DNA from: Calditrichota bacterium
Lineage (GTDB): Bacteria; Zhuqueibacterota; Zhuqueibacteria; Oleimicrobiales; Geothermoviventaceae
Direction: 5' to 3'
Length of the DNA stretch: 28,491 nucleotides
Assembly (NCBI GenBank): GCA_013152765.1
Contig: JAADFT010000534.1
Span: forward strand, 1 to 28,491
Positions 7,646 to 17,764 of the stretch are shown piece by piece. The number at the start of each line of letters is the position of its first letter. The first letter of the stretch is position 1. The position numbers and the translations under genes are program-made. Under the pieces are notes generated by a model. It had not been told where the DNA came from, did not search any database, and saw only the letters and a list, made by a program, of their open reading frames with translations.

Positions 7646-8269
7646 TCACTTGAGGTGACAGGTCAGACACAGGGAGCTTTGGTTGTTTGGCTTCCGCAAC
7701 AGGGCCCCTGTGCCGAGATTGCTGTGTACGTCGTGGCAGGAGGTACACTCCACCTTTCCGTCTACAAGTAGATCGTGGTCAATCGTGCCCCCCAGCCCCG
7801 ACTCCGTTGTCGTCGGATCGGCCAATCCCCCGTCTTTCGCCGCCAGGTTAGCGTCGTACACGAAAGAAACCGGATGATCATCAGTCAGGTCACGCTTCAG
7901 AATTGCCTTGTCGGAAGAAAAAGAGACCGACAGAGCAATCCCACCAACGTTGTCAGTGGCCACGGTTCCGTCGTGACAACTAAGGCAGAGCTTGGAAGGG
8001 CCGTCTGGTTGGCCGACCTCGGCATCCAGAGTAGAACTGGCGTAAGGTGTGAAACCAGCTACGTCCTCGCTTGATCGCAGCGCCGGATTTCCTCGCTTCT
8101 TTCCGGCCATGCCGGCCGTGTGGCACACAGCACAGTTGTTGACGTTGAACCCCGAAGATGTACCAAGGAAATCGTGTGGGTTGTTCAGCCGCTGGGCCCA
8201 AGCTGTCCCCTCGTAACTTCCAAGACTCCAGGCCAAGAACACCACCGCGAGAGCACTCACTCGCCTCAT
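7646..8269 (-). CDS. OmcE-like tetraheme c-type cytochrome, paralog 2 (divergent heme-1 region)
   Basis: Signal peptide, RBS GGAGGAG, 4 CXXCH (CAVCH, CLSCH, CTSCH, CLTCH), motifs PHDF, SKLCLSCHDG, DDHPVSF. Close paralog of 13921-14538. Confidence 0.85.
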   Translation of the reverse strand: MRRVSALAVVFLAWSLGSYEGTAWAQRLNNPHDFLGTSSGFNVNNCAVCHTAGMAGKKRGNPALRSSEDVAGFTPYASSTLDAEVGQPDGPSKLCLSCHDGTVATDNVGGIALSVSFSSDKAILKRDLTDDHPVSFVYDANLAAKDGGLADPTTTESGLGGTIDHDLLVDGKVECTSCHDVHSNLGTGALLRKPNNQSSLCLTCHLK

Positions 8270-8845
8270 GCCGCTCCTCCGAGCGTGAACGCCGTTTGCG
8301 TCTCTCTCACCTCTTCTTCATTCGGCCAACGAAGGCCGAACTTTAGCCGAGACGAGTAAAATTGCCTTCTGAGAGGAACGTCACGAGAGCCTTAGTCCTT
8401 CTGTGCAGCAGGCATGTCGCCGTCGCCAGCCAGACTGCTGGGCCCCCTCGTTTTCAGGAGTCACCCGTTGGAAGGGTCGACCAGCCTTCTCACCTACAGG
8501 TAAAGCCAAAGTGCCACACTTTTCAGTCACGGGTCCCAGTTTCTGGCTACACCCGCAACACGCCCGCGGAGAGCGTCCAGACCTGCTACGCGAATTTCAC
8601 CTGAGTAAAGCCGAGTGCGGGGTAACTTTTTGTCCTGGCAGGATCGAATCCCCGGGACAGCCAGACAACGCGCCCGCCGAACCAAGCTTGATCGAGTGGG
8701 AATCTTCGATTACTTAACGTGGCAGGATTGACGAGTGAAGCGGCTACGCACCAGAATCAACCGAGCCCCTTGTGAACACGAGGCAGCGCTGGGAAAGCTA
8801 CCGACACGCCCCCAGAGCTGATTCAACGGGCTTCTTGCAGATGGG

Positions 8846-9901
8846 TCACCGCTTGTACTGAAGTTTCTGATGGCAACCTGGTGTGCAGGCACCGCCGACG
8901 TCCGTCTGAACAACTTTTAGCGGCATCCTCCAGCGGCCGAACCAAACGAACTGGCGGAGAAGGTGGGGAACATCGGAGGCATGCATGTCGTGGCAGGCCA
9001 CGCAACTTCGACTTTTGTCTGCCATCACGTGGACAAAGTGCAAGTTTCGGTTACTCGCCCGGAATTGAGTCGCGTCCGGGTCGTTCTTGGTCTCCAGCAG
9101 TGCGGAGTCATGGCACCCGAAACAAAGCTCGTAAGACTCTGGCTTCGGCTTCCCGTAAAACCCACCCGGGAAAGCACCCGTCAAAAGATAAGGATACTCC
9201 GAAACGTGAGGAACGTGACACGTCGAGCAGCCCGACATCTCCAGGGCGGGATGGACAAACTGGCTGGTTTTCAAAAGCTTCCCAACGGGCTCCAGCGTTC
9301 TTTCGCCATTCTTTACCGGATCGGTATGGCAACTCAGGCAAAGATCGGGTGGTTCTTTGATTAGCAACTTTTCCAGAGAGCTGTCGTGAGGCCGGTGGCA
9401 CGACGAGCAGGACTTTCCCGAGGTGATCACCCCGTGCACCGAGCCAGAATCCCCTTCTGGTTGCTGGTAGCCATCGTGACACATCGCGCAAAGGTCGGGC
9501 AAAGGCTGAGTCAGCAACCCTCGTACCTCCGAACTGTGTGGATCGTGGCACGTTAAGCATTCGCCATCCTGAGCAGGTGGGTGCACTGAGCCTTCTTCCG
9601 AAATCACCTCGTGACAGGTGAGGCACAGATCACCGCCTTCAGCCAGCAGGCTGAATTCTTTACCCTCCCCTCCAGGGTGCGGAGCGCCCGAACTTTCGTG
9701 GCAACTGCCGCAGTCGTCTCTCGCGACCGGATGCACAAAGCGTTTCGCCAACAAATCCGCGTGGCAGCCCTCCACAGTGCAGCCCACTTCCTGCGCCCGG
9801 GGCTGCGCAAAAAACCCGGTCACACCGTAAAACGCAACGGCAAACAGCGCCATCAGAAGGCGCATCCAGCGTTTTTGCAAATTAGGCATCTTGGTTCTCA
9901 C
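8846..9901 (-). CDS. Periplasmic multiheme c-type cytochrome, 9 CXXCH plus 2 variant motifs (ExtA/ExtG-like conduit component)
   Basis: Signal peptide, repeated doubled-CXXCH units (VHP..C..CH.PH), plus CTVEGCH and CTPGCH. The GTG start overlaps the stop of the upstream beta-barrel gene. The Ext-family label is an inference. Confidence 0.85.
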   Translation of the reverse strand: MRTKMPNLQKRWMRLLMALFAVAFYGVTGFFAQPRAQEVGCTVEGCHADLLAKRFVHPVARDDCGSCHESSGAPHPGGEGKEFSLLAEGGDLCLTCHEVISEEGSVHPPAQDGECLTCHDPHSSEVRGLLTQPLPDLCAMCHDGYQQPEGDSGSVHGVITSGKSCSSCHRPHDSSLEKLLIKEPPDLCLSCHTDPVKNGERTLEPVGKLLKTSQFVHPALEMSGCSTCHVPHVSEYPYLLTGAFPGGFYGKPKPESYELCFGCHDSALLETKNDPDATQFRASNRNLHFVHVMADKSRSCVACHDMHASDVPHLLRQFVWFGRWRMPLKVVQTDVGGACTPGCHQKLQYKR

Positions 9902-11913
9902 TCGAAATGCCGCGCAAGTCGAAAATAGGCACCGTTGTAGTTGATTTGCTCCCCTAAGAAGTTGCGTCGGTAGACCTGAAAGCCTACAACGAATGTCAGG
10001 CGCCGAAAAGCTGTTGCCAGTTCCGTGCGCACGTTAGTCAAATCCAGATCGATCGAACGACCTCGGTTCGAGCGGTACCCGCCTTCCAGGTTGAATTTCA
10101 ACACGCGGGTGATCCGGTAGCTCAGTTGCGCGTTTGTTGAGAAATACCTTTGTCGCTCCTGGTCACGCAGCAGAAAATAGTCGCGGTACCTTGCAGAAAG
10201 GAAAAGCCCCACGCGCGCACTCGTCCCAAGGAGTATTCCCGCCTCATACTGTTCGTAACGGTAAGGGATGATGCTGGACTCGTAGCGGTGCTTTTCGTAG
10301 CCCAGGCGGAGTCCCCAAAACTGCAGGCGCCCGCCGTACATCCTCTCTACCAGGTAGTTCAAGGAAACCACGTTGGGATTGGAGACGCGGTCGTAGTCCT
10401 GATCGTAGTAGTTGTAGTAAAGCTCGACAGCGCGCCGAAACAGGGAAAGGGCTCCACCTACCTTACGGTTCCAGGCTCGGAAACTGTACGAACGCTCTTG
10501 CTCGGCGACGTAGTCCACGTACACTACGCCTCCATTCGGAATCTGGCTACCGGGCAGACGGCGAATTTCTACAAAAACCCCTTGTTCGACGAGAATGTAA
10601 TCCAGATTTTCCTGGTAGACGATCGTACCTGACTCATCCGTGACGCGGATCGTGCTCAGATCGACGTACGGGTTGTCGAGCAGCACTGTACGGTCGTCCC
10701 AGAGTTCGTGCGCCTCATCGACAACGACGAGACGGCCCGGAATACTGGCGTGGCTCTGCCACTGGCGGCGCAACTCGTAGTTGAGTGACAGAATTCCTCC
10801 CGGAATGCGCTTACGGTAGTCTGCCATGAATCCGAGCAATTTTCTCCGATCGTCGACTCCGGGCTGTTTGGACTTTGTGAACCGGTAGTAGACTCTCGTT
10901 CGCAGGCTCATGTAAAGACGGTGTTCGAGCGCAAACTGCGACTGGTCAACAGTCATTCTGTAATCGGGACGATCGTAAGTGACACGCTGGTAGTCCGCTC
11001 GAGCAGCAAAGCGAGCTGGTAGAGCGAGAGTTAGATTCTCGTTCGCCTGCATTCTTCGGAAATCGAACACACCTTTCTGCCGGTAAAACAGCACGTTGGA
11101 GACAAAAGTGCTGGTTCTGGACGAATTCAGGTCAAAACGGTTGCTGATGTTCAGCTCATCGATCGCGTTTTGAATGGAATACAGGCCCGCGTAACTTCGC
11201 GTGTAATCCGTGTACGTGTAGCGCACTCGATTGGCATCGCGCCCCCAAAAAGAGCGATTTGCCTGCGCAGTTAGCGTTTTTCGACGATCAAAAAAGTGGC
11301 GATTCGTTTCGATTTCCAGCTGATCCCAGCGCTCCTTGGAAAATCGCACAGACAGAGGTAGAATTTTCCCCGTGAATCGCACAGAAGCGCCGACGCTCTT
11401 TTTTCGCACTTCAACGTCCGTGATCAGCTCTCTGCGGTTGAAAACGTGGGCACTGTAGCGGTAAAGGCTAAAAGACAACGGCCGCTGCGAGAAAACCGTC
11501 GCGCGCACATCGAATTTCTTGGCCGTCAGCGCTTCCGTTCTGTCTGGTAAAACGACGTAACGATACCTTCTCGAAGCCGGCTGGTAGCCGAAATCGATGT
11601 CAAGAACGAGAAGGTTCGGGTGTACAACGTAGCTTTTTGATCGAACTTTAACGTAGCCGGTCAGGATCGAGGTCTTTGGCCTTTCCGTCGCTCCGGATTT
11701 CAGCACACGTTCTTGAGTGCGGTAGTCTCCATCAATCCCAAGTGTTGTTCTTAGCGTAAGCTGGTTCCAGGGTCCAACCTGGAACATCGTAGGCTGGGCG
11801 TACACAAGCCAGGGCAGCAAGAAAGCAGTGCCGATGACCGTCAGCACCTGTCTTACACAAAACCACGGTGCCGATCGTCGTATTAACCCTTTTTGTACGC
11901 AGCATGCAGTCAT
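9898..11913 (-). CDS. Outer-membrane beta-barrel protein, likely porin of a porin-cytochrome conduit
   Basis: Signal-like N-terminus, alternating amphipathic Y/F/R-rich strands throughout, C-terminal YFRLARHFE, position between two cytochrome genes. Confidence 0.75.
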   Translation of the reverse strand: MTACCVQKGLIRRSAPWFCVRQVLTVIGTAFLLPWLVYAQPTMFQVGPWNQLTLRTTLGIDGDYRTQERVLKSGATERPKTSILTGYVKVRSKSYVVHPNLLVLDIDFGYQPASRRYRYVVLPDRTEALTAKKFDVRATVFSQRPLSFSLYRYSAHVFNRRELITDVEVRKKSVGASVRFTGKILPLSVRFSKERWDQLEIETNRHFFDRRKTLTAQANRSFWGRDANRVRYTYTDYTRSYAGLYSIQNAIDELNISNRFDLNSSRTSTFVSNVLFYRQKGVFDFRRMQANENLTLALPARFAARADYQRVTYDRPDYRMTVDQSQFALEHRLYMSLRTRVYYRFTKSKQPGVDDRRKLLGFMADYRKRIPGGILSLNYELRRQWQSHASIPGRLVVVDEAHELWDDRTVLLDNPYVDLSTIRVTDESGTIVYQENLDYILVEQGVFVEIRRLPGSQIPNGGVVYVDYVAEQERSYSFRAWNRKVGGALSLFRRAVELYYNYYDQDYDRVSNPNVVSLNYLVERMYGGRLQFWGLRLGYEKHRYESSIIPYRYEQYEAGILLGTSARVGLFLSARYRDYFLLRDQERQRYFSTNAQLSYRITRVLKFNLEGGYRSNRGRSIDLDLTNVRTELATAFRRLTFVVGFQVYRRNFLGEQINYNGAYFRLARHFE

Positions 11914-12003: not shown

Positions 12004-12582
12004 TCATTGCAGAAATGTTCGATCGTCTCCTCCGTGCGGATTGTGGCACTCTGTGCAATCCGCTTCTCCAATGTCACTGTGCACCGGGTTCGCAAACACG
12101 TCGGTTTTCTCGTGGCAAAACAGACAAAGGGCCTGCCCTTTTGCGAACAGCAGGTTCTCGTTCTTGGCCATGTGTGGATTATGGCAAGCGGTGCAGTAGC
12201 CGCCTGCCACAGGCCCGTGAAGAACTTCGAAGCTCTCACGAAAATCATCGTGGCAACCGTAACACAGATCCGGTTGTGGCGCAAGCAAGCGGTTTCCTGC
12301 TTGAATGTCATGACAGGAACCGCAATCTTTGTCCTGGTAAGGAGGATGAAAAACATACTGCGGCCCCATCCGGAGCCGGCGTAGCCTCTCTTCCAGTGCT
12401 GCACGATCAGCCACGGCAGACGTGTCGACTAACGCTACCTCAGAGGGGTTGGGAACTCCGTCGAAGAAAAAGGAAAGGACCTTGTAGCGGGTCATCGGCG
12501 AACAGGCGAAGTGAGCGAGACTGAGCGCAAAAGCGAGACCGACGAGCAGGAATCTTGTGCAACTGTGACGAAAATCGGTCAT
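12004..12582 (-). CDS. Pentaheme c-type cytochrome, probable lipoprotein (ExtC/ExtF-like)
   Basis: Hydrophobic leader ending in an atypical lipobox HFAC (Cys27), YKVLSFFFDGVP motif, 5 CXXCH (CGSCH, CYGCH, CTACH, CLFCH, CTECH). Confidence 0.85.
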   Translation of the reverse strand: MTDFRHSCTRFLLVGLAFALSLAHFACSPMTRYKVLSFFFDGVPNPSEVALVDTSAVADRAALEERLRRLRMGPQYVFHPPYQDKDCGSCHDIQAGNRLLAPQPDLCYGCHDDFRESFEVLHGPVAGGYCTACHNPHMAKNENLLFAKGQALCLFCHEKTDVFANPVHSDIGEADCTECHNPHGGDDRTFLQ

Positions 12583-12696: not shown

Positions 12697-13764
12697 TCAG
12701 CGTGGTTCTACAAAACCGTACACGTTTACCTTGTCTGGACCGTACTGGTTTGTCACGAAAATGAGATACTTCAAGCGAAAGCGCTTGTCCACAAATTTCC
12801 GAAAAAGCTCCAGGTTGTCGTAGTCGATTACAACTTTCGCTGGCAACCACATGTAACCAGGGCCCTCGTAAGGCCCACCAAACGGCATCAACAAATGGCC
12901 GTCTCTGTCGAAAATCTGTACATTCTCAAAAGCGGCGTCCACAACGTAAAGGTTGCCGTCACGATCCACAGCAATTCCCTTAGGCCGGGCAAATTGCCCA
13001 AGTCCTCGTCCGTAACTGCCAACCGACCGCACAAATTTCCCATCCCGGGTGTAGATCTTGACTTTGAAATCCCCAATGTCGCTCACGTAAACTCGGTCGC
13101 GAGTCACGTAGAGATTGGTGGGCGAAAACAGCCGCGCCGCCGTGTCCGCGTCGGCTTCTGGAAACGAGTTGAGTAGCTCATGCGTGAAGGCGTGGTAGAC
13201 CCGAACTTTGTGAGACTTGAGATCTGTGACCCAAATCTTGTTGTCCACCACCTGGACGTCAGTGGGTTTCATCTCCGCCGGCCCACCAATGCTGTTGACG
13301 TAGCCAAGCTGATCATCGTAAATCACCACCTGTTGACGTCCGGTGTCCGCCACGTACAAGTAACCCTTTCCGTCTACGTAGCAGTTGATCGGTTTGCGCA
13401 GAAGCCCTAAGCCACGGGGTTTGAAGTACCTAAATGTTTTCCGCTTAAGATCGATGATTTCCAGCCCTGCCACGATCGTGTCGCAGATGTAGACAACACC
13501 GTGCCGGATTGCCAATCCGTATGGCTTGATGATCGGTTTCGGAGCCTGCTTTCCGAGAATGTAGGCCAGGAATCCCGAACGGCGTCCCGTGATGTCGGTA
13601 GATTCACTGAATCGCGCCAGGAACTGAATCCGAGCTGTGTCCGGCGGGGGCGGAAAAACGATGACCTCGTTTCCGGGCGACGTCTGGGCACCTACCCGCG
13701 TGGCTACCATCAACAAAAATCCGAAGATGCCGAGCAACAGTGTAGCGAATCTATTCCGAATCAT
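12697..13764 (-). CDS. Exported NHL-repeat beta-propeller protein
   Basis: Signal peptide, FPPPPDTARIQF N-terminal motif, NHL blades (KPYGLAI, LYVADTG, FARPKGIAVDRDGNLYVVDAAFENVQIFD). Confidence 0.88.
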   Translation of the reverse strand: MIRNRFATLLLGIFGFLLMVATRVGAQTSPGNEVIVFPPPPDTARIQFLARFSESTDITGRRSGFLAYILGKQAPKPIIKPYGLAIRHGVVYICDTIVAGLEIIDLKRKTFRYFKPRGLGLLRKPINCYVDGKGYLYVADTGRQQVVIYDDQLGYVNSIGGPAEMKPTDVQVVDNKIWVTDLKSHKVRVYHAFTHELLNSFPEADADTAARLFSPTNLYVTRDRVYVSDIGDFKVKIYTRDGKFVRSVGSYGRGLGQFARPKGIAVDRDGNLYVVDAAFENVQIFDRDGHLLMPFGGPYEGPGYMWLPAKVVIDYDNLELFRKFVDKRFRLKYLIFVTNQYGPDKVNVYGFVEPR

Positions 13765-13920: not shown

Positions 13921-14538
13921 CTACTTGGCGTGGCACGTCAAGCAAAGAGCGCTGCCACCGTTGCTCTTCACAAGGAGGTTAGCCACACCGCTGCCATTAT
14001 GCACATCGTGGCAGGACGCGCACTGCAGCTTGTGGCCGTACAGCATGTCCTGGTCAATGGTGCCGCCCAAGCCGGAGCTGGTAGTCGTCGGGTCGTACAA
14101 ACCACCATCCGTGCTCGCCAAGGTGGCATCGTAGGTGAACGAAACTGGGTGATCGTTGCTCAGGTCAGTACCAATCAAGTCGTTTCCATGCACGAACACG
14201 TTGCCATTGGTATTACCACCGAAATTGTCTACAGCGACTGTGCCATCGTGGCAGCTCAGACAGAGCTTGGAATTTCCGTCGGGCTGACCGACAGATGCAT
14301 CCAGGCTGGAGCTGCTGTACGGCGTAAAAGTCGCGGAAGTGACCTGATGGTTCCACAAGGGCTCCACGTTGGCTTCAGCATGGTGTGGCGTATGACATAC
14401 GATGCAGATTTCTCCCGAAGGATTCCAGCTCTCTTGGGAGAAATCGTGCGCCGACCCAGCGATGGTCTGACCCTGCGCCACCCCGAAGGCCACACATAAC
14501 ATCAGTACCACCACGGGAACGAACAGTAAACGCTTCAT
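13921..14538 (-). CDS. omcE: OmcE-like tetraheme c-type cytochrome, paralog 1 (candidate nanowire subunit)
   Basis: Signal peptide, strong RBS GGGAGGAG, 4 CXXCH. The motif series AHDFS, ICIVCHTPH, PLWN, FTPYSSSS, LCLSCHDG, IGTDLSNDHPVSF, LQCASCHDVH, GSALCLTCH matches, in order and spacing, Geobacter OmcE as I recall it. Needs alignment to confirm. Confidence 0.85.
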   Translation of the reverse strand: MKRLLFVPVVVLMLCVAFGVAQGQTIAGSAHDFSQESWNPSGEICIVCHTPHHAEANVEPLWNHQVTSATFTPYSSSSLDASVGQPDGNSKLCLSCHDGTVAVDNFGGNTNGNVFVHGNDLIGTDLSNDHPVSFTYDATLASTDGGLYDPTTTSSGLGGTIDQDMLYGHKLQCASCHDVHNGSGVANLLVKSNGGSALCLTCHAK

Positions 14539-14925
14539 CGTTCTCCTCCCTCATATTCGATTGCATTAAACCGCTGGTCTTTCACAGCCTACCCTACTCC
14601 CGCTTTACAAAATCATGGAGGATCTCTGGAGCCCCACGTACGCCAACAGCTGCGGAGAAGACATATCTTTTGGCTACGCCGCATTGGGATGACCCGTCCC
14701 TGTCAATCAGTGCGAAACAAGCTTCCCTCAGATCCACTTACCGGCCATCCCTGGCCCCTGCCGAAAAACTTGGCCTTTCCCAACTTTTAAATTTCTCAAA
14801 CAATGAGCCCCAATTCTCCACCTTCTTGAGGCTCAAATATACGCCAATTACTGGCGTGAAACAAGCCTTTTTTGAAGGATAACTTCTACATCGTTTGCCA
14901 TAGCATTCTCAACGTGATCTCAAAC

Positions 14926-14940
14926 ACAAATATTGTGCCA
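14926..14940 (-). promoter_or_regulatory. Candidate sigma-54 (-24/-12) promoter for the omcE-like operon
   Basis: The - strand reads TGGCACAATATTTGT against the consensus TGGCAC-N5-TTGC (C to T at -12). An IHF-like CATCAATCGGTTG lies at 14990-15002. The same core occurs at 22807. Confidence 0.5.
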
Positions 14941-15048: not shown

Positions 15049-16743
15049 TCAATACGACTTAGGGCTGTGTCTCTTCCCGTGACACTCCAGGTAGCACTTA
15101 CCACTGAAATTTCCTGTGTCCACAAATTCCAGTCGCCCAGTACGCGGATCGGGCGATACGACGTTCAGGTCAAAGTTCATCAAATGACTGTGATTTGTCG
15201 CATCCCCCTGACTGCTGCTAATTCCATGTGGATCGTGACACACGTTGCACGGAGTGTTTTCTCGAACAATGTGCTTCTTGTGTACCCTCTTGTAGAAACG
15301 CCCCATGCCGTTGATAACCTGACTCCGATCATGACACCTGTAACACAGTTCGTAGGCCTGGTAGGACTCGCTGGTACCGTCACTGGTAATGTACTGGTAC
15401 TTCATAATGTGCGGGTAGATGGATCCATGTGGTCCCTTGGCTGCTCCCGTCCCATCACTGGCATGGCAGTCCGTGCAGTAGATGATGCTGTTCTCGTTCA
15501 GCGGTGCGATCAGGCTTGGCACATTGGTGTTCCTGCCCGGTGCCTCAATCGGATGGTAAGACGGGTTGCTGGGATCAAACTCCAGTCGGACGTTGTTTTG
15601 TTCAACTTGGCGATGAGTCGGACTGCCCGGTTTGTTTGGACTGTCCGCGTGGCAACGGTAGCAAAGTTGGTACTGGTACTGGATTTCCTGCACCGCCTCT
15701 CCTTGTGAGTCGACACCACGCACACCGAGCAGAGCCCCCGTCACGTCCGGCGCAGAGGCTTCGAGAGCCTTTGCTGCATGAGGATTGTGGCAGTCGGTAC
15801 ATTCAACATGTCGCTTAGTCACAAGGGCGGGTTCAGCTGGATCGTGGATTCCCTGGTAGGAAAAAACATCGTGACGGTAAGTCTTGGCCATCTCGGCCTG
15901 GATGTCCGTTTCGGCAACGTTGCCGTTGTGGCAAACCAGACAGTTTTCCTCTTCTGGTTTCGAATTCAACAGTCTCTCTTCACCCTCGGCGGAATGAGGG
16001 TCATGGCAGTTTTCGCACGCATTTTCCGAGACGGTGCTGTACCCTGTGTGGAACCACGGATCGTTACCCAGACCATTCCACGTTGCCGAAGAAAGCGCAT
16101 GGCTTGCGTTGTCCCATCCCTTTTTCTGGTGACAGTAACGACAGAGTGTGGAATAGCGCTGACTCGCTACCAGGAAATTGCCGTACAGGTCTTTGTGAGG
16201 GTCGTGGCAGGACGTACACTGCAACTGTCCGTCCTCCAGCTGGACCGGTCCCGAGAGAGAAGCCGGATCCGCCAGCTCTCCTTCACTTGCAGCCAGAGTC
16301 GACGAGTAGTAGAATGAAACGGGGTGATCGTCGGCCAGATTCGTCCCGAGATTTGAGCTGCCCGACGGCATCGTGGTTACGCCACCCGCAAAGGTAATGG
16401 GTGACGATCGGCTCAACACATCCCCCAGTGCCAGAGACCCGTCATGGCACGATAGACACAGAATCGAGGAACCCGTAGGCTGTCCGGGTGACGCGAGCAG
16501 GGTCGAACTGCTGTAAAGTTTGTACGTGCTCCCTGGATCTTCTCGATTCCAGAGAGGTGCCCGCCCACTGCTTCGGTGGGGTGTGTGACAGAACACGCAC
16601 ACCTCTGTCTCGCTTTCGGCCTTAATGTCGCCGGGTCCGCTCACAGAAAGATTGTGGGGCGTGTTCAGAATCGATTGTCCGGCCGCGCCAACGGGCAACA
16701 TGAGAAATGCAACCAGAAGTCGTGTACGGTCAATTCTGCGCAT
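15049..16743 (-). CDS. Large exported multiheme cytochrome (11 CXXCH plus CYLECH) with an N-terminal OmcE-like domain
   Basis: Start set at ATG 16743 (RBS GGAG; the track starts at 16764). Signal peptide. The first four hemes carry PHNLS, VCVFCHTPH, PLWNR, LYSSST, LCLSCHDG, LGTNLADDHPVSF, LQCTSCHDPH. Confidence 0.87.
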   Translation of the reverse strand: MRRIDRTRLLVAFLMLPVGAAGQSILNTPHNLSVSGPGDIKAESETEVCVFCHTPHRSSGRAPLWNREDPGSTYKLYSSSTLLASPGQPTGSSILCLSCHDGSLALGDVLSRSSPITFAGGVTTMPSGSSNLGTNLADDHPVSFYYSSTLAASEGELADPASLSGPVQLEDGQLQCTSCHDPHKDLYGNFLVASQRYSTLCRYCHQKKGWDNASHALSSATWNGLGNDPWFHTGYSTVSENACENCHDPHSAEGEERLLNSKPEEENCLVCHNGNVAETDIQAEMAKTYRHDVFSYQGIHDPAEPALVTKRHVECTDCHNPHAAKALEASAPDVTGALLGVRGVDSQGEAVQEIQYQYQLCYRCHADSPNKPGSPTHRQVEQNNVRLEFDPSNPSYHPIEAPGRNTNVPSLIAPLNENSIIYCTDCHASDGTGAAKGPHGSIYPHIMKYQYITSDGTSESYQAYELCYRCHDRSQVINGMGRFYKRVHKKHIVRENTPCNVCHDPHGISSSQGDATNHSHLMNFDLNVVSPDPRTGRLEFVDTGNFSGKCYLECHGKRHSPKSY

Positions 16744-17764
16744 GCGCGCCTCTCCGTAACTCAAATATCTGCACTCGACCGTTGTAAGTGTCGGCTACGT
16801 AGATCCTGTCATTCACATCCACAAAAATCCCCGTCGGCAACCAAAACTCCCGCCTGCCGTGGCCTGGAGACCCGAAACGGTACAGCAACACGCCTTCACG
16901 ATCAAACACTTGAACCGCATTGAAAAGTGCATCGACGAGGTAAATATTTCCGTGGCGATCCACCGAAACGCCCTTGGGCCTCGCAAAATACCCGGAAGCA
17001 TCCCCTGCCTCACCAAAGGACGAGACAACGCTTCCGTCTTCCTGCAGGATTTGCAGCCGGAAGTTCAGAGCATCGACCACATAAGCGAGACCGGTACGGT
17101 CGATCCACAGAAAATTGGGGAAATTGAATTCCCCCAGTTCCTTTCCTCGATGTCCAATTGTTCGCTTTACATGACCGGTACGGTCCAGGACAGCGATCCG
17201 GTGCGCAAGCGTCTCAACAACCCAGATTTCATCAGAGACAGGTGACCACGCAATCCCGGTCGGCCTCTGTAACTTCCGGGACACGGTCAGTTTCCTGGCC
17301 TTTTTCTCGCCCCTCCTCAACGAGAAGACGGCGTTCAGACGGGAATCCGTAAAGTAGAGTGTGCCGTCTCCTGCGACGCATGCAGAAACGAGGGAAGGAA
17401 ACTGGCGGTATTCCTCGCTTCGAACAAGCTGGTACCGCCGTTGAGAACTATCGGTTACCACGACAGCACGAAGCCCCTGATCCAGGATGAACCACGTCGA
17501 ACCATCTGCTACGAAAGCTACTGGCCGTGAGAGGGAAGGGCCTCGCTTACCGGCGATTAGCCTAAGAAGCCGATCACCCAACCTCTGGTGTTGCGCCAGG
17601 AGAGTTTGTTGACTTATTTCGCCAACCCACCGCACGGAGTAGCTTCCATCCTCCGCCACAGCGGGGTGCAGGACGAAAGTAGCCGCCAGCCACACCGCTG
17701 CTGAGCTAACCACTCGCCAGAGGCAGACCGACATACGCTCAGGAATCTCGAGCCGCAACCTCAA
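16730..17764 (-). CDS. Exported NHL-repeat beta-propeller protein
   Basis: Hydrophobic leader, NHL blades (LQRPTGIAW, GEFNFPNFLWID, FARPKGVSVDRHGNIYLVDALFNAVQVFD, FWLPTGIFVDVNDRIYVADTYNGRVQIF). The start codon is uncertain (TTG 17764 or a downstream ATG). Confidence 0.88.
   Translation of the reverse strand: MRLRLEIPERMSVCLWRVVSSAAVWLAATFVLHPAVAEDGSYSVRWVGEISQQTLLAQHQRLGDRLLRLIAGKRGPSLSRPVAFVADGSTWFILDQGLRAVVVTDSSQRRYQLVRSEEYRQFPSLVSACVAGDGTLYFTDSRLNAVFSLRRGEKKARKLTVSRKLQRPTGIAWSPVSDEIWVVETLAHRIAVLDRTGHVKRTIGHRGKELGEFNFPNFLWIDRTGLAYVVDALNFRLQILQEDGSVVSSFGEAGDASGYFARPKGVSVDRHGNIYLVDALFNAVQVFDREGVLLYRFGSPGHGRREFWLPTGIFVDVNDRIYVADTYNGRVQIFELRRGAHAQN

What the first reader, a model, noticed from the sequence alone, without database searches (positions are those of the whole stretch)
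8108..8134. Second OmcE paralog has lost a conserved distal His (CxxCHTPH becomes CxxCHTAGM): possible wire cap, tip or high-potential variant
Seen: the two tetrahemes are near-identical in their cores (32/38 identical over FTPY...DNxGG; 30/38 over DHPVSF...DxDxL). Right after heme 1, however, paralog 1 has CIVCHTPHHA...PLWN (14380-14406) while paralog 2 has CAVCHTAGMA...PALR. The 12-heme protein keeps TPH and PLWN. Established: OmcE hemes are bis-His ligated. Inference: paralog 2 has one His/Met or five-coordinate heme. That could shift its potential, end polymerisation, or create a reactive terminal site, which would make the filament a heteropolymer with a specialised minor subunit.
Basis: partly seen in the sequence, partly recalled or inferred. 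Interest (0 to 1): 0.68.

Follow-up and report, generated by a model that had tools for sequence, protein, structure and literature searches.

The report
OmcE paralog lacking the subunit-linking histidine
The second OmcE-type tetrahaem cytochrome in this nanowire gene cluster has lost the histidine that such subunits most likely donate to a haem of the neighbouring subunit, so it probably cannot extend a filament on one side and may be a chain-end piece or a stand-alone cytochrome rather than a protein with an odd haem ligand.

Summary
Paralog 2 (7646-8269, minus) reads CAVCHTAGM where paralog 1 reads CIVCHTPHH, and it also lacks PLWN.

The loss is not drift. Both close orthologues lack the His, and 42 of 244 single-domain homologues lack it. 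In four lineages a His-less copy is the last gene of the same cluster.

The Met is not conserved. The 22-residue arm after haem 1 is only 18-45% identical among orthologues whose remaining sequence is 84-93% identical. A His/Met haem is therefore unlikely.

Natural tandem arrays of OmcE domains omit this His only in their first domain, and add one tail His after their last domain. This gives exactly one distal His per haem. So the +3 His serves the preceding unit, as I recall for OmcS His16.

Paralog 2 keeps the three invariant in-chain distal His. Its fourth haem could take His52 from paralog 1, or its own clade-specific His165.

Best reading: a donor-less subunit, either a filament-end cap (favoured) or a closed monomer.

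All of this is inference from sequence. No coordinates were available to me.

The parts
7646..8269 (-). Paralog 2 (P0001, 207 aa): OmcE-family tetrahaem cytochrome with a signal peptide and four CxxCH motifs. It lacks the +3 His after haem 1.
   Evidence: Translation. PDB hits 9YUQ (2e-13) and 7TFS (5e-11). Pfam Paired_CXXCH_1. Residues 73-207 are 84-93% identical to orthologues.
8108..8134 (-). The finding itself: CAVCH-TAG-M (residues 46-54). Gly53 stands where the family has the +3 His.
8054..8119 (-). Vestigial 'donor arm' (residues 51-72: TAGMAGKKRGNPALRSSEDVAG). The His and the PLW motif are lost, no aromatics remain, and the segment is poorly conserved among orthologues.
   Evidence: Arm identity is 18-45% against 84-93% for residues 73-207. 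Only 33-38% of family-conserved columns are kept in the arm in all three His-less clades.
8174..8176 (-). His32 (PHDF): invariant distal His, inferred to ligate a haem of its own chain.
   Evidence: Invariant in alignment A1. Kept in the first domain of tandem arrays.
7874..7876 (-). His132 (DDHPV): invariant distal His, inferred to ligate a haem of its own chain.
7724..7726 (-). His182 (CTSCH-DV-H): invariant +3 His of haem 3, inferred to ligate haem 1 within the same chain.
   Evidence: The periodic +3 His on hemes 1, 3 and 5 is shown.
7775..7777 (-). His165 (TIDHDLL), 10 residues before the haem-3 CxxCH. It is clade-specific and is a candidate in-chain plug for the haem that normally receives the neighbour's His.
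   Evidence: Present in P0001, P0006 and P0007, and in only 4 of 202 TPH-type homologues. Geometry not testable here.
13921..14538 (-). Paralog 1 (P0002, 205 aa): canonical OmcE-type subunit with all four distal His (H31, H52, H130, H180) and PLWN. Presumed polymerising subunit.
14383..14385 (-). His52 of paralog 1 (CIVCH-TP-H): the inferred donor His that could ligate haem 3 of a preceding unit, including paralog 2.
15049..16764 (-). P0125: N-terminal OmcE-like domain that keeps TPH and PLWN, followed by 8 more haem motifs. Haem 5 carries its own +3 His (CENCH-DP-H), so haem 3 can be ligated within the chain. Candidate end piece for the opposite end.
   Evidence: In 118 homologues the +3 His sits on hemes 1, 3 and 5 in 116, and a His lies at +10 after haem 4 in 112.
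16730..17764 (-). NHL beta-propeller protein 1 of the cluster.
12697..13764 (-). NHL beta-propeller protein 2 (P0003).
12004..12582 (-). Small lipoprotein pentahaem cytochrome (P0398).
9898..11913 (-). 671-aa protein (P0005) with no Pfam hit. Its position and size match the large outer-membrane beta-barrel of OmcE clusters.
   Evidence: Synteny. Cluster description in PMC13712944.
8846..9901 (-). 351-aa multihaem cytochrome (P0004).
8270..8845 (-). 576-bp untranslated spacer upstream of paralog 2. A GGAGGAG Shine-Dalgarno sequence lies just before the ATG. No Rfam family matches and no minus-strand sigma-70-like promoter or terminator match lies in the spacer.

Best explanation
Paralog 2 is a functional OmcE-family tetrahaem cytochrome under selection that has lost its 'donor arm'. 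In this family each di-haem module reads His-a ... CxxCH-x-x-His-b ... CxxCH. His-b of the first module (the TPH His) is not a ligand of the subunit's own haems. It reaches back to a haem of the preceding unit, inferred to be haem 3, and this is the coordination bond that links subunits in OmcE/OmcS-type wires. Paralog 2 keeps the three in-chain distal His (H32, H132, H182) and the conserved haem core, so its own haems can stay bis-His. It cannot tie a further subunit onto its haem-1 side. The favoured consequence is that it occupies the haem-1 end of a polar filament built from paralog 1. There its haem 3 would be ligated by His52 of the next paralog-1 subunit, and its haem-1 face would be covered only by a short, hydrophilic, aromatic-free loop, which could serve as an electron entry or exit site. 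Shown: conserved loss of the His, the relaxed arm, the conserved core, the synteny, and the domain-order rule in tandem arrays. Inferred: the inter-subunit role of the His in this protein, which haem accepts it, and the position in a filament.
For: (1) D. soudanensis OmcE (9YUQ) has exactly 8 His in its mature part for four bis-His haems, so the TPH His is an axial ligand (PMC13712944).
(2) OmcE and OmcS each have one haem ligated by a His from the adjacent subunit (PMC9473688; PMC6584659).
(3) Tandem arrays. In P0128 (4 domains) D1 has no +3 His while D2-D4 have TPH, SPH and TTH. In P0131, D1 has none and D2 has SPH. In P0126, D1 has none and D2 has SPH. N-terminal HD[FL] is kept in every domain.
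(4) His bookkeeping. P0128 has 16 haems and 15 column-conserved distal His plus one tail His. P0131 has 8 haems and 7 plus one tail His.
(5) The three other distal His are invariant, while the +3 His is missing in 42 of 244 homologues.
(6) Three His-less clades keep 88-99% of family-conserved columns outside the arm and only 33-38% within it.
(7) Among paralog-2 orthologues the arm is 18-45% identical and the rest 84-93%. For paralog 1 in the same genome pair (P0002/P0049) the figures are 82% and 94%.
(8) The His-less copy is the last gene of the same cluster in four lineages. It sits directly downstream of a P0125-like fusion in two more loci.
(9) The P0125 class has the donor His and can ligate its own haem 3 within the chain. 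This gives a complementary candidate piece for the other end.
Against: No coordinates of 7TFS or 9YUQ and no usable model were available (AF2 pLDDT 56.6). The inter-subunit role of the TPH His in OmcE is therefore inferred, not read from a structure. That OmcS His16 is the CxxCH+3 His is from my memory. One review says the haem receiving the neighbour's His in OmcE is haem 2 (PMC12203936), which does not fit my haem-3 assignment. There are exceptions to the tandem rule: P0127 D2 lacks the His and P0129 D1 has it. One His-less protein (P0143, L034) sits in the major-subunit position. The clade-specific His165 could fill haem 3 within the chain, which would make paralog 2 a closed monomer rather than a cap. 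Geobacter and Desulfuromonas OmcE clusters are described without a second OmcE gene, so a cap is not required for OmcE filaments in general. Nothing shows that paralog 1 forms filaments in this organism. No RNA data exist for it.
Confidence: 0.45

Rival explanations
1. Closed stand-alone tetrahaem. Paralog 2 neither donates nor accepts an inter-subunit His. His165, ten residues before the haem-3 CxxCH, folds onto the distal face of haem 3. The result is a self-contained, all-bis-His, non-polymerising OmcE-like cytochrome, acting as a shuttle or as an adaptor between the porin-cytochrome conduit and the filament.
For: Paralog 2 has exactly 8 His in the mature protein. His165 is shared by all three orthologues and is rare (4 of 202) in TPH-type proteins. 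Tandem arrays show that an in-chain plug His can replace the missing neighbour's His. The His-x9-CxxCH spacing is the one used for self-ligation in c7/c3 cytochromes (from memory). This clade has also lost W39, W65 and F108 and remodelled residues 108-126, a wider loss of surface features than in the other His-less clades.
Against: Other His-less lineages have no His at 165. Some have only 7 ligand-competent His (P0141, P0143, P0232, P0274), so a plug is not a general property of the class. Position 165 lies in a segment that is 84-93% identical anyway, so conservation in three sequences says little. His also occurs at 165 in proteins that keep all four standard ligands. Enrichment of His at 158-174 in His-less proteins is weak (13/42 against 32/202) and not corrected for phylogeny.
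Confidence: 0.28
2. The lost His is a ligand of one of paralog 2's own haems. That haem becomes His/Met (Met54) or five-coordinate, giving a high-potential or reactive site.
For: Met54 lies one residue after the lost His. Met within 8 residues of haem 1 is somewhat more frequent in His-less homologues (7/42 against 10/202). If paralog 2 exists as a free monomer and His165 is not a ligand, one haem (inferred haem 3) would indeed be five-coordinate.
Against: Met54 is absent from both orthologues (TAGT, AAGR), and P0007 has no Met anywhere in the arm. The arm is almost unconstrained. The tandem-array rule places the lost His on the neighbour's haem, not on an own haem. Eight His are available for four haems.
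Confidence: 0.1
3. Neutral ligand swap. The TPH His ligates an own-chain haem in this family and His165 has simply taken over its role. Behaviour is otherwise unchanged, and paralog 2 is a redundant or alternative major subunit.
For: Loss of one His coincides with gain of another in the same clade. PMC12203936 names haem 2, an internal haem, as the haem ligated from the neighbour. That leaves room for a different donor than the TPH His.
Against: This does not explain why the first domains of tandem arrays lack this His with no replacement while later domains keep it. It does not explain the exact His count reached only with the tail His. It does not explain His-less homologues with 7 His, nor why the whole arm including PLW, W39 and F108 decays while the core is kept.
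Confidence: 0.12
4. Decaying duplicate. Paralog 2 is drifting towards loss of function.
For: It has a long stem branch in the tree, and it is separated from the operon by a 576-bp spacer.
Against: The ORF is intact with a signal peptide and a Shine-Dalgarno sequence. Residues 73-207 are 93% identical to the orthologue P0006, as high as paralog 1 between the same genomes (94%). All CxxCH motifs and three distal His are kept. Synteny is conserved across lineages.
Confidence: 0.03

Closest known systems
OmcE tetrahaem nanowire subunit of Geobacter sulfurreducens (PDB 7TFS) and Desulfuromonas soudanensis DSOUD_2954 (PDB 9YUQ)
   Same: Full-length sequence homology. Four CxxCH motifs. HDx, DHP and CxxCH-DVH distal His. 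The gene cluster has two beta-propeller proteins, multihaem cytochromes and a large barrel-sized protein, as described for OmcE clusters (PMC13712944).
   Different: Paralog 2 lacks the fourth conserved distal His (CxxCH-TP-H), the PLWN motif and both family Trp residues. It is a second copy at the 3' end of the cluster, a feature not described for Geobacter or Desulfuromonas clusters. The organism is a hydrothermal-vent-associated MAG. Its nearest homologues are labelled Calditrichota, KSB1 or Chlorobi, and one MAG 'Cytophagia'. These are phyla not among the five listed for OmcE in PMC13712944.
OmcS hexahaem nanowire subunit (PDB 6EF8/6NEF)
   Same: It has the same alternating di-haem module logic. 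One haem (haem 5) is ligated by a His from the neighbouring subunit (PMC6584659). From memory, the donor is His16, the +3 His of the first CxxCH, which corresponds to the residue lost here.
   Different: No detectable sequence similarity. Six haems. No donor-less paralog has been described as a filament component.
Single-chain tandem OmcE-domain cytochromes (P0128, P0131, P0126, P0298; uncharacterised metagenomic proteins)
   Same: Their first domain looks like paralog 2: HD[FL] is kept and the +3 His is absent.
   Different: Their units are covalently linked, and a tail His after the last haem closes the chain. Paralog 2 is a separate polypeptide with no tail; it ends CLTCHLK.
Tip and terminator subunits of chaperone-usher pili (FimH lacks the donor N-terminal extension; PapH cannot accept one). 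This is an analogy from memory, not homology.
   Same: The logic of a polar polymer held by a donated element. A subunit without the donor element can sit only at one end. A subunit whose acceptor site is filled can sit only at the other end (compare P0125).
   Different: Unrelated fold and chemistry. Here the donated element would be a His-Fe coordination bond, not a beta-strand. No assembly data exist.

Membership tests
OmcE-type tetrahaem nanowire cytochrome (7TFS / 9YUQ) | Full-length sequence similarity to solved OmcE subunits | tested here: met
   P0001 against 9YUQ: E 2.1e-13, residues 28-207. Against 7TFS: E 5.2e-11. P0002 scores 2e-25 and 7e-21.
OmcE-type tetrahaem nanowire cytochrome (7TFS / 9YUQ) | Four CxxCH haem-binding motifs in about 200 residues | tested here: met
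   CAVCH, CLSCH, CTSCH, CLTCH.
OmcE-type tetrahaem nanowire cytochrome (7TFS / 9YUQ) | Four conserved non-CxxCH histidines that complete bis-His ligation (PMC13712944) | tested here: not met
   Only three of the four are present (H32, H132, H182). The CxxCH+3 His is Gly53. Paralog 1 has all four.
OmcE-type tetrahaem nanowire cytochrome (7TFS / 9YUQ) | Encoded with a large outer-membrane barrel and a beta-propeller lipoprotein | tested here: met
   NHL propellers at 12697-13764 and 16730-17764. A 671-aa barrel-sized protein at 9898-11913 (no Pfam hit; barrel not shown directly).. The same order is seen in L004, L007, L008 and L036.
OmcE-type tetrahaem nanowire cytochrome (7TFS / 9YUQ) | Polymerises through a His donated to a haem of the adjacent subunit | tested here: not met
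   The residue inferred to be the donor is absent, and the surrounding arm is unconstrained. Whether paralog 2 can still accept a His is not testable with these tools.
Pfam PF09699 Paired_CXXCH_1 (doubled CXXCH motif) | Score above the gathering threshold | tested here: met
   35.1 bits against a cut-off of 20.6, residues 171-205.
   Met54 occurs only in P0001. The orthologues read TAGT and AAGR, and P0007 has no Met in the arm.
All-bis-His closed tetrahaem (monomer) | Eight His placed so that each haem has two axial His within one chain | tested here: inconclusive
   Eight His are present, including clade-specific His165. Its geometry could not be tested: the AF2 model has pLDDT 56.6 and no coordinates were returned.

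The most novel reading that the evidence does not exclude
The cluster encodes a polar, capped heteropolymeric cytochrome nanowire with three kinds of OmcE module. Paralog 2 has no donor His but can accept one, so it would sit at the haem-1 end, with an exposed haem 1 as the electron exit or entry site. Paralog 1 both donates and accepts, and would form the repeating body. The 12-haem P0125 donates a His, fills its own acceptor site from its haem-5 module, and carries an 8-haem extension, so it would sit at the other end, possibly as the base or anchor to the porin-cytochrome conduit. Two loci (L015, L023) that place only a P0125-like gene and a His-less tetrahaem side by side would then be the minimal closed wire made of the two end pieces alone. 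This would be the first heteropolymeric cytochrome nanowire and a coordination-bond analogue of tip and terminator subunits in chaperone-usher pili.
Probability: 0.3. Interest if true: 0.85.

Novelty: new variant of a known kind. Interest (0 to 1): 0.62.

Why it matters
[quoted passage not shown] How their ends are capped, anchored and wired to partners is an open question (PMC7096707; PMC12307469).

A conserved and fairly widespread class of OmcE paralogs lacks the inferred linking His while keeping the haem core. Together with a complementary self-plugged fusion protein in the same cluster, this gives concrete candidates for end subunits.

It also gives a simple sequence rule for predicting which OmcE-like proteins can polymerise: is the donor His present, and is the acceptor haem plugged within the chain? 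If the rule holds, it would also offer a handle for controlling filament length in engineered nanowires.

If paralog 2 is instead a closed monomer, the case still shows how a polymerising cytochrome can be converted into a soluble one by moving one ligand.

Tried and rejected
1. AlphaFold2 of P0001 with a 92-sequence alignment gave mean pLDDT 56.6 and pTM 0.50, with all haem-binding segments below 50. No coordinates reach the Python box. I could not measure His165 or Met54 geometry or run a fold search.

2. Literature. The OmcE structure paper (PMC9357133) and the OmcS Cell paper (PMC6720112) are not held. None of the reviews and preprints I read names the donor residue. PMC12203936 names haem 2 as the acceptor while also aligning OmcE with OmcS haems 3-6. 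Those two statements are inconsistent with each other.

3. His/Met idea: rejected because the Met is not conserved.

4. Test for a general in-chain plug. His at 158-174 occurs in 13/42 His-less against 32/202 TPH-type proteins. No C-terminal tail His occurs in any His-less single-domain protein. The result is weak and not corrected for phylogeny.

5. Single or multiple origin of His-less paralogs. Three well-supported clades group together only weakly (SH-aLRT 71) and have long stems, so long-branch attraction is possible. Unresolved.

6. Regulatory features upstream of paralog 2. No Rfam hit in the window. No convincing minus-strand sigma-70 site. Sigma-54 pattern matches are not above chance.

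7. Expression. Only DNA runs hold the locus and no RNA run does. I did not lay reads.

8. A search for more tandem arrays with P0128 found only two giant 48-49-haem proteins. They have a related tetrahaem repeat and their first haem also lacks the +3 His. This is supportive but distant.

Full report
OBSERVATION

The window is contig C534 of an 86%-complete MAG. On the minus strand, 7646-8269 encodes a 207-aa protein (P0001, 'paralog 2') and 13921-14538 a 205-aa protein (P0002, 'paralog 1').

Window 8108-8134 encodes residues 46-54 of P0001, CAVCHTAGM. The matching stretch of P0002 is CIVCHTPHH. PLWN in P0002 is PALR in P0001. The proteins are 51% identical.

Both are real OmcE homologues. P0002 hits the G. 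sulfurreducens OmcE filament (7TFS, E 2e-25) and the D. soudanensis OmcE filament (9YUQ, E 7e-21). P0001 hits the same two entries at 5e-11 and 2e-13.

CONTEXT

The minus-strand cluster 17764-7646 reads as follows:
- NHL propeller
- a 571-aa cytochrome with 12 haem motifs whose N-terminal domain is OmcE-like and keeps TPH and PLWN (P0125)
- paralog 1
- NHL propeller
- lipoprotein pentahaem
- a 671-aa barrel-sized protein
- a 351-aa multihaem cytochrome
- a 576-bp spacer
- paralog 2

[quoted passage not shown] The second tetrahaem is the addition.

IS THE SUBSTITUTION CONSERVED?

Only two proteins are closer to P0001 than P0002 is: P0006 (80% identity) and P0007 (68%).
- Both lack the His (CAVCHTAGT, CSVCHAAGR).
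- Neither has the Met.
- Both share a His in TI[DY]HDLL (His165 of P0001), which TPH-type relatives lack.
- P0006 sits in a fully syntenic cluster.

The pattern is wider than this clade:
- Among 244 single-domain homologues, 42 lack the +3 His.
- Among the closest 120 hits they form three well-supported clades with long stems. One origin is neither shown nor excluded.
- In four lineages the His-less copy is the last gene of the same cluster, downstream of a TPH-type copy (L004/L009, L007, L008, L036).

So this is not drift. It is a recurrent, conserved class of second paralog.

WHAT DOES THE LOST HIS NORMALLY DO?

D. soudanensis OmcE has exactly eight His in its mature sequence for four bis-His haems. 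The TPH His must therefore be an axial ligand. OmcE and OmcS each have one haem ligated by a His from the adjacent subunit. I could not read the primary OmcE or OmcS papers, so the donor residue had to be inferred.

Three lines of evidence point to the +3 His.

(a) In alignment A1 the other three distal His (H32, H132, H182) are invariant. The +3 His is the only ligand His that the family can lose.

(b) In 118 P0125-like fusion proteins the +3 His is present on haems 1, 3 and 5 and absent on haems 2, 4 and 6 in 116 cases. The family is therefore built of di-haem modules, His-a ... CxxCH-xx-His-b ... CxxCH.

(c) Natural single-chain tandem arrays act as a control experiment.
- P0128 has four OmcE domains. 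D1 has no His-b; D2-D4 have TPH, SPH and TTH.
- In P0131 and P0126 the first domain also lacks it, and the directly following domain has it.
- The N-terminal HD[FL] His is kept in every domain.
- Counting column-conserved distal His gives 15 for the 16 haems of P0128 and 7 for the 8 haems of P0131. In each protein a single extra His 9 residues after the last CxxCH completes the set. P0298 has a matching tail His at +9/+10, but its N-terminus is truncated, so I made no count for it.

The simplest reading is that His-b of unit k ligates a haem of unit k-1. The first unit then needs no His-b, and the last unit needs a substitute. This matches my recollection that the OmcS inter-subunit ligand is His16, the +3 His of its first CxxCH (memory, not checked here).

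Exceptions exist: P0127 D2 lacks the His and P0129 D1 has it. One review names haem 2, not haem 3, as the haem that receives the neighbour's His in OmcE. I put the core inference (lost His = inter-subunit donor) at about 0.75.

WHAT HAS CHANGED IN PARALOG 2?

Family-conserved columns (present in at least 85% of 108 TPH-type proteins) are kept at 88-99% in residues 73-108 and 128-205 in all three His-less clades. In the arm after haem 1 (residues 50-72) only 33-38% are kept.

Identity by region among orthologues:

| Comparison | Arm 51-72 | Residues 73-207 |
|---|---|---|
| P0001 / P0006 / P0007 (paralog 2, three pairs) | 18-45% | 84-93% |
| P0002 / P0049 (paralog 1, same genome pair as P0001 / P0006) | 82% | 94% |

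The arm of paralog 2 is about as poorly conserved as its signal peptide.

Paralog 2 is therefore under strong purifying selection except in the arm, which behaves like a vestigial loop. That also argues against a specific new ligand inside the arm.

The P0001 clade has further lost both family Trp residues (W39, W65) and F108. It has remodelled residues 108-126 and is less acidic than paralog 1 (net charge -5 to -9 against -13 to -19).

MECHANISM

Paralog 2 keeps everything needed to bind four haems with three in-chain distal His. Under the module rule, the haem that normally receives the neighbour's His is haem 3. That haem can be completed in one of two ways.

- Cap model (favoured, about 0.45 for the full statement). 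His52 of a following paralog-1 subunit completes haem 3. Paralog 2 sits at the haem-1 end of a polar filament and cannot be extended further. This fits several observations: the conserved acceptor half; the recurrent pairing with a TPH-type gene; His-less homologues with only seven ligand-competent His; and two loci where a His-less tetrahaem lies directly after a P0125-like gene.
- Closed-monomer model (about 0.28). Its own clade-specific His165, ten residues before the haem-3 CxxCH, completes haem 3.

P0125 has the donor His, and its haem 3 can be ligated by the +3 His of its own haem 5. It is the natural candidate for the opposite end.

I could not discriminate between the two models. The AF2 model is poor (pLDDT 56.6) and no coordinates are returned. 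His also occurs at position 165 in 4 of 202 TPH-type proteins.

'His/Met or five-coordinate haem in paralog 2, high-potential variant' is not supported. The Met is not conserved. The lost His is probably not a ligand of paralog 2's own haems. Eight His are available for four haems.

'Ends polymerisation / terminal site / heteropolymer with a minor subunit' is the reading that gains support, by a different route from the one proposed.

COMPARISON WITH WHAT IS KNOWN

By sequence and context paralog 2 belongs to the OmcE family. It fails one defining feature, the fourth conserved distal His. I therefore file it as a new variant: a donor-less OmcE module.

Published OmcE clusters are described with a single OmcE gene. 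Published nanowires are homopolymers. Capping and anchoring of the filament ends are stated open questions. The closest functional analogy is the tip/terminator logic of chaperone-usher pili (from memory).

LIMITS

Everything rests on sequence comparison.
- No structure with haems was available.
- No expression data exist.
- There is no evidence that this organism makes filaments.
- The tandem-array argument rests on two or three independent lineages.

Noticed in passing
window 15049-16764 (-), P0125; homologues P0276-P0394: The 12-haem protein and 118 homologues show a strict alternation: a +3 His after haems 1, 3 and 5 and none after 2, 4 and 6 (116/118). A His lies exactly 10 residues after haem 4 in 112/118. 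The OmcE domain is thus continued by a third module of the same type, as in OmcS, so its haem 3 can be ligated within the chain. It is a candidate self-plugged end or anchor subunit.
   Followed up: partly
P0128 (1400 aa), P0131 (594 aa), P0126 (965 aa), P0298 (948 aa), metagenomic proteins: These are single-chain tandem arrays of 2-4 complete OmcE-like tetrahaem domains, in effect 'covalent nanowires', followed by non-haem domains. The first domain lacks the +3 His, and a tail His follows the last CxxCH at +9/10.
   Followed up: partly
L008:9296-9949 (+): A 5-CxxCH OmcE-like protein (CRPCHTPHH...) lies directly upstream of the His-less paralog in one relative's cluster. It probably belongs to the 5-haem OmcE-like class mentioned in PMC13712944.
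   Followed up: no
L034:324-914 (P0143): A His-less OmcE-like tetrahaem with only 7 ligand-competent His sits directly upstream of an NHL propeller gene, which is the position of the major subunit. The contig is only 2.1 kb. This is a possible counter-example to the rule that His-less means minor subunit.
   Followed up: no
L015:9950-12414 and L023:6199-8712: In two loci (record titles: an unclassified 'bacterium' MAG and a Planctomycetota MAG) a P0125-like 11-haem fusion gene is immediately followed by a His-less tetrahaem (CGACHTPP, CAACHTPQ). No TPH-type single-domain gene is seen in the fetched stretch. This could be a minimal closed wire made of the two end pieces.
   Followed up: partly
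window 14925-14940 (-): TGGCACAATATTTGTG, a sigma-54-like -24/-12 element, lies about 390 nt upstream of paralog 1. Relatives' clusters carry a sigma-54 activator two-component pair just upstream of their OmcE gene (L007, L008). The pattern count in the window is not above chance.
   Followed up: no
window 8270-8845: A 576-bp non-coding spacer separates paralog 2 from the upstream cytochrome gene; the orthologous locus L004 has about 300 bp. No Rfam family matches and no minus-strand sigma-70-like promoter or terminator match lies in the spacer. This suggests separate regulation of paralog 2.
   Followed up: partly
literature, PMC12203936: The review says OmcE haems superpose on OmcS haems 3-6, and also that OmcE haem 2 is the one ligated from the neighbouring subunit. 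OmcS haem 5 would correspond to OmcE haem 3, so the two statements do not agree. This should be checked against 7TFS.
   Followed up: no
whole window; runs X1-X5: The locus is held by DNA runs that include a hydrothermal vent metagenome. The nearest protein homologues are labelled Calditrichota, KSB1 or Chlorobi. The nearest syntenic MAG (L009/L006, CAZXXS010000090.1 of GCA_964644845.1) is labelled 'Cytophagia'. These phyla are outside the five in which PMC13712944 reported OmcE clusters.
   Followed up: no
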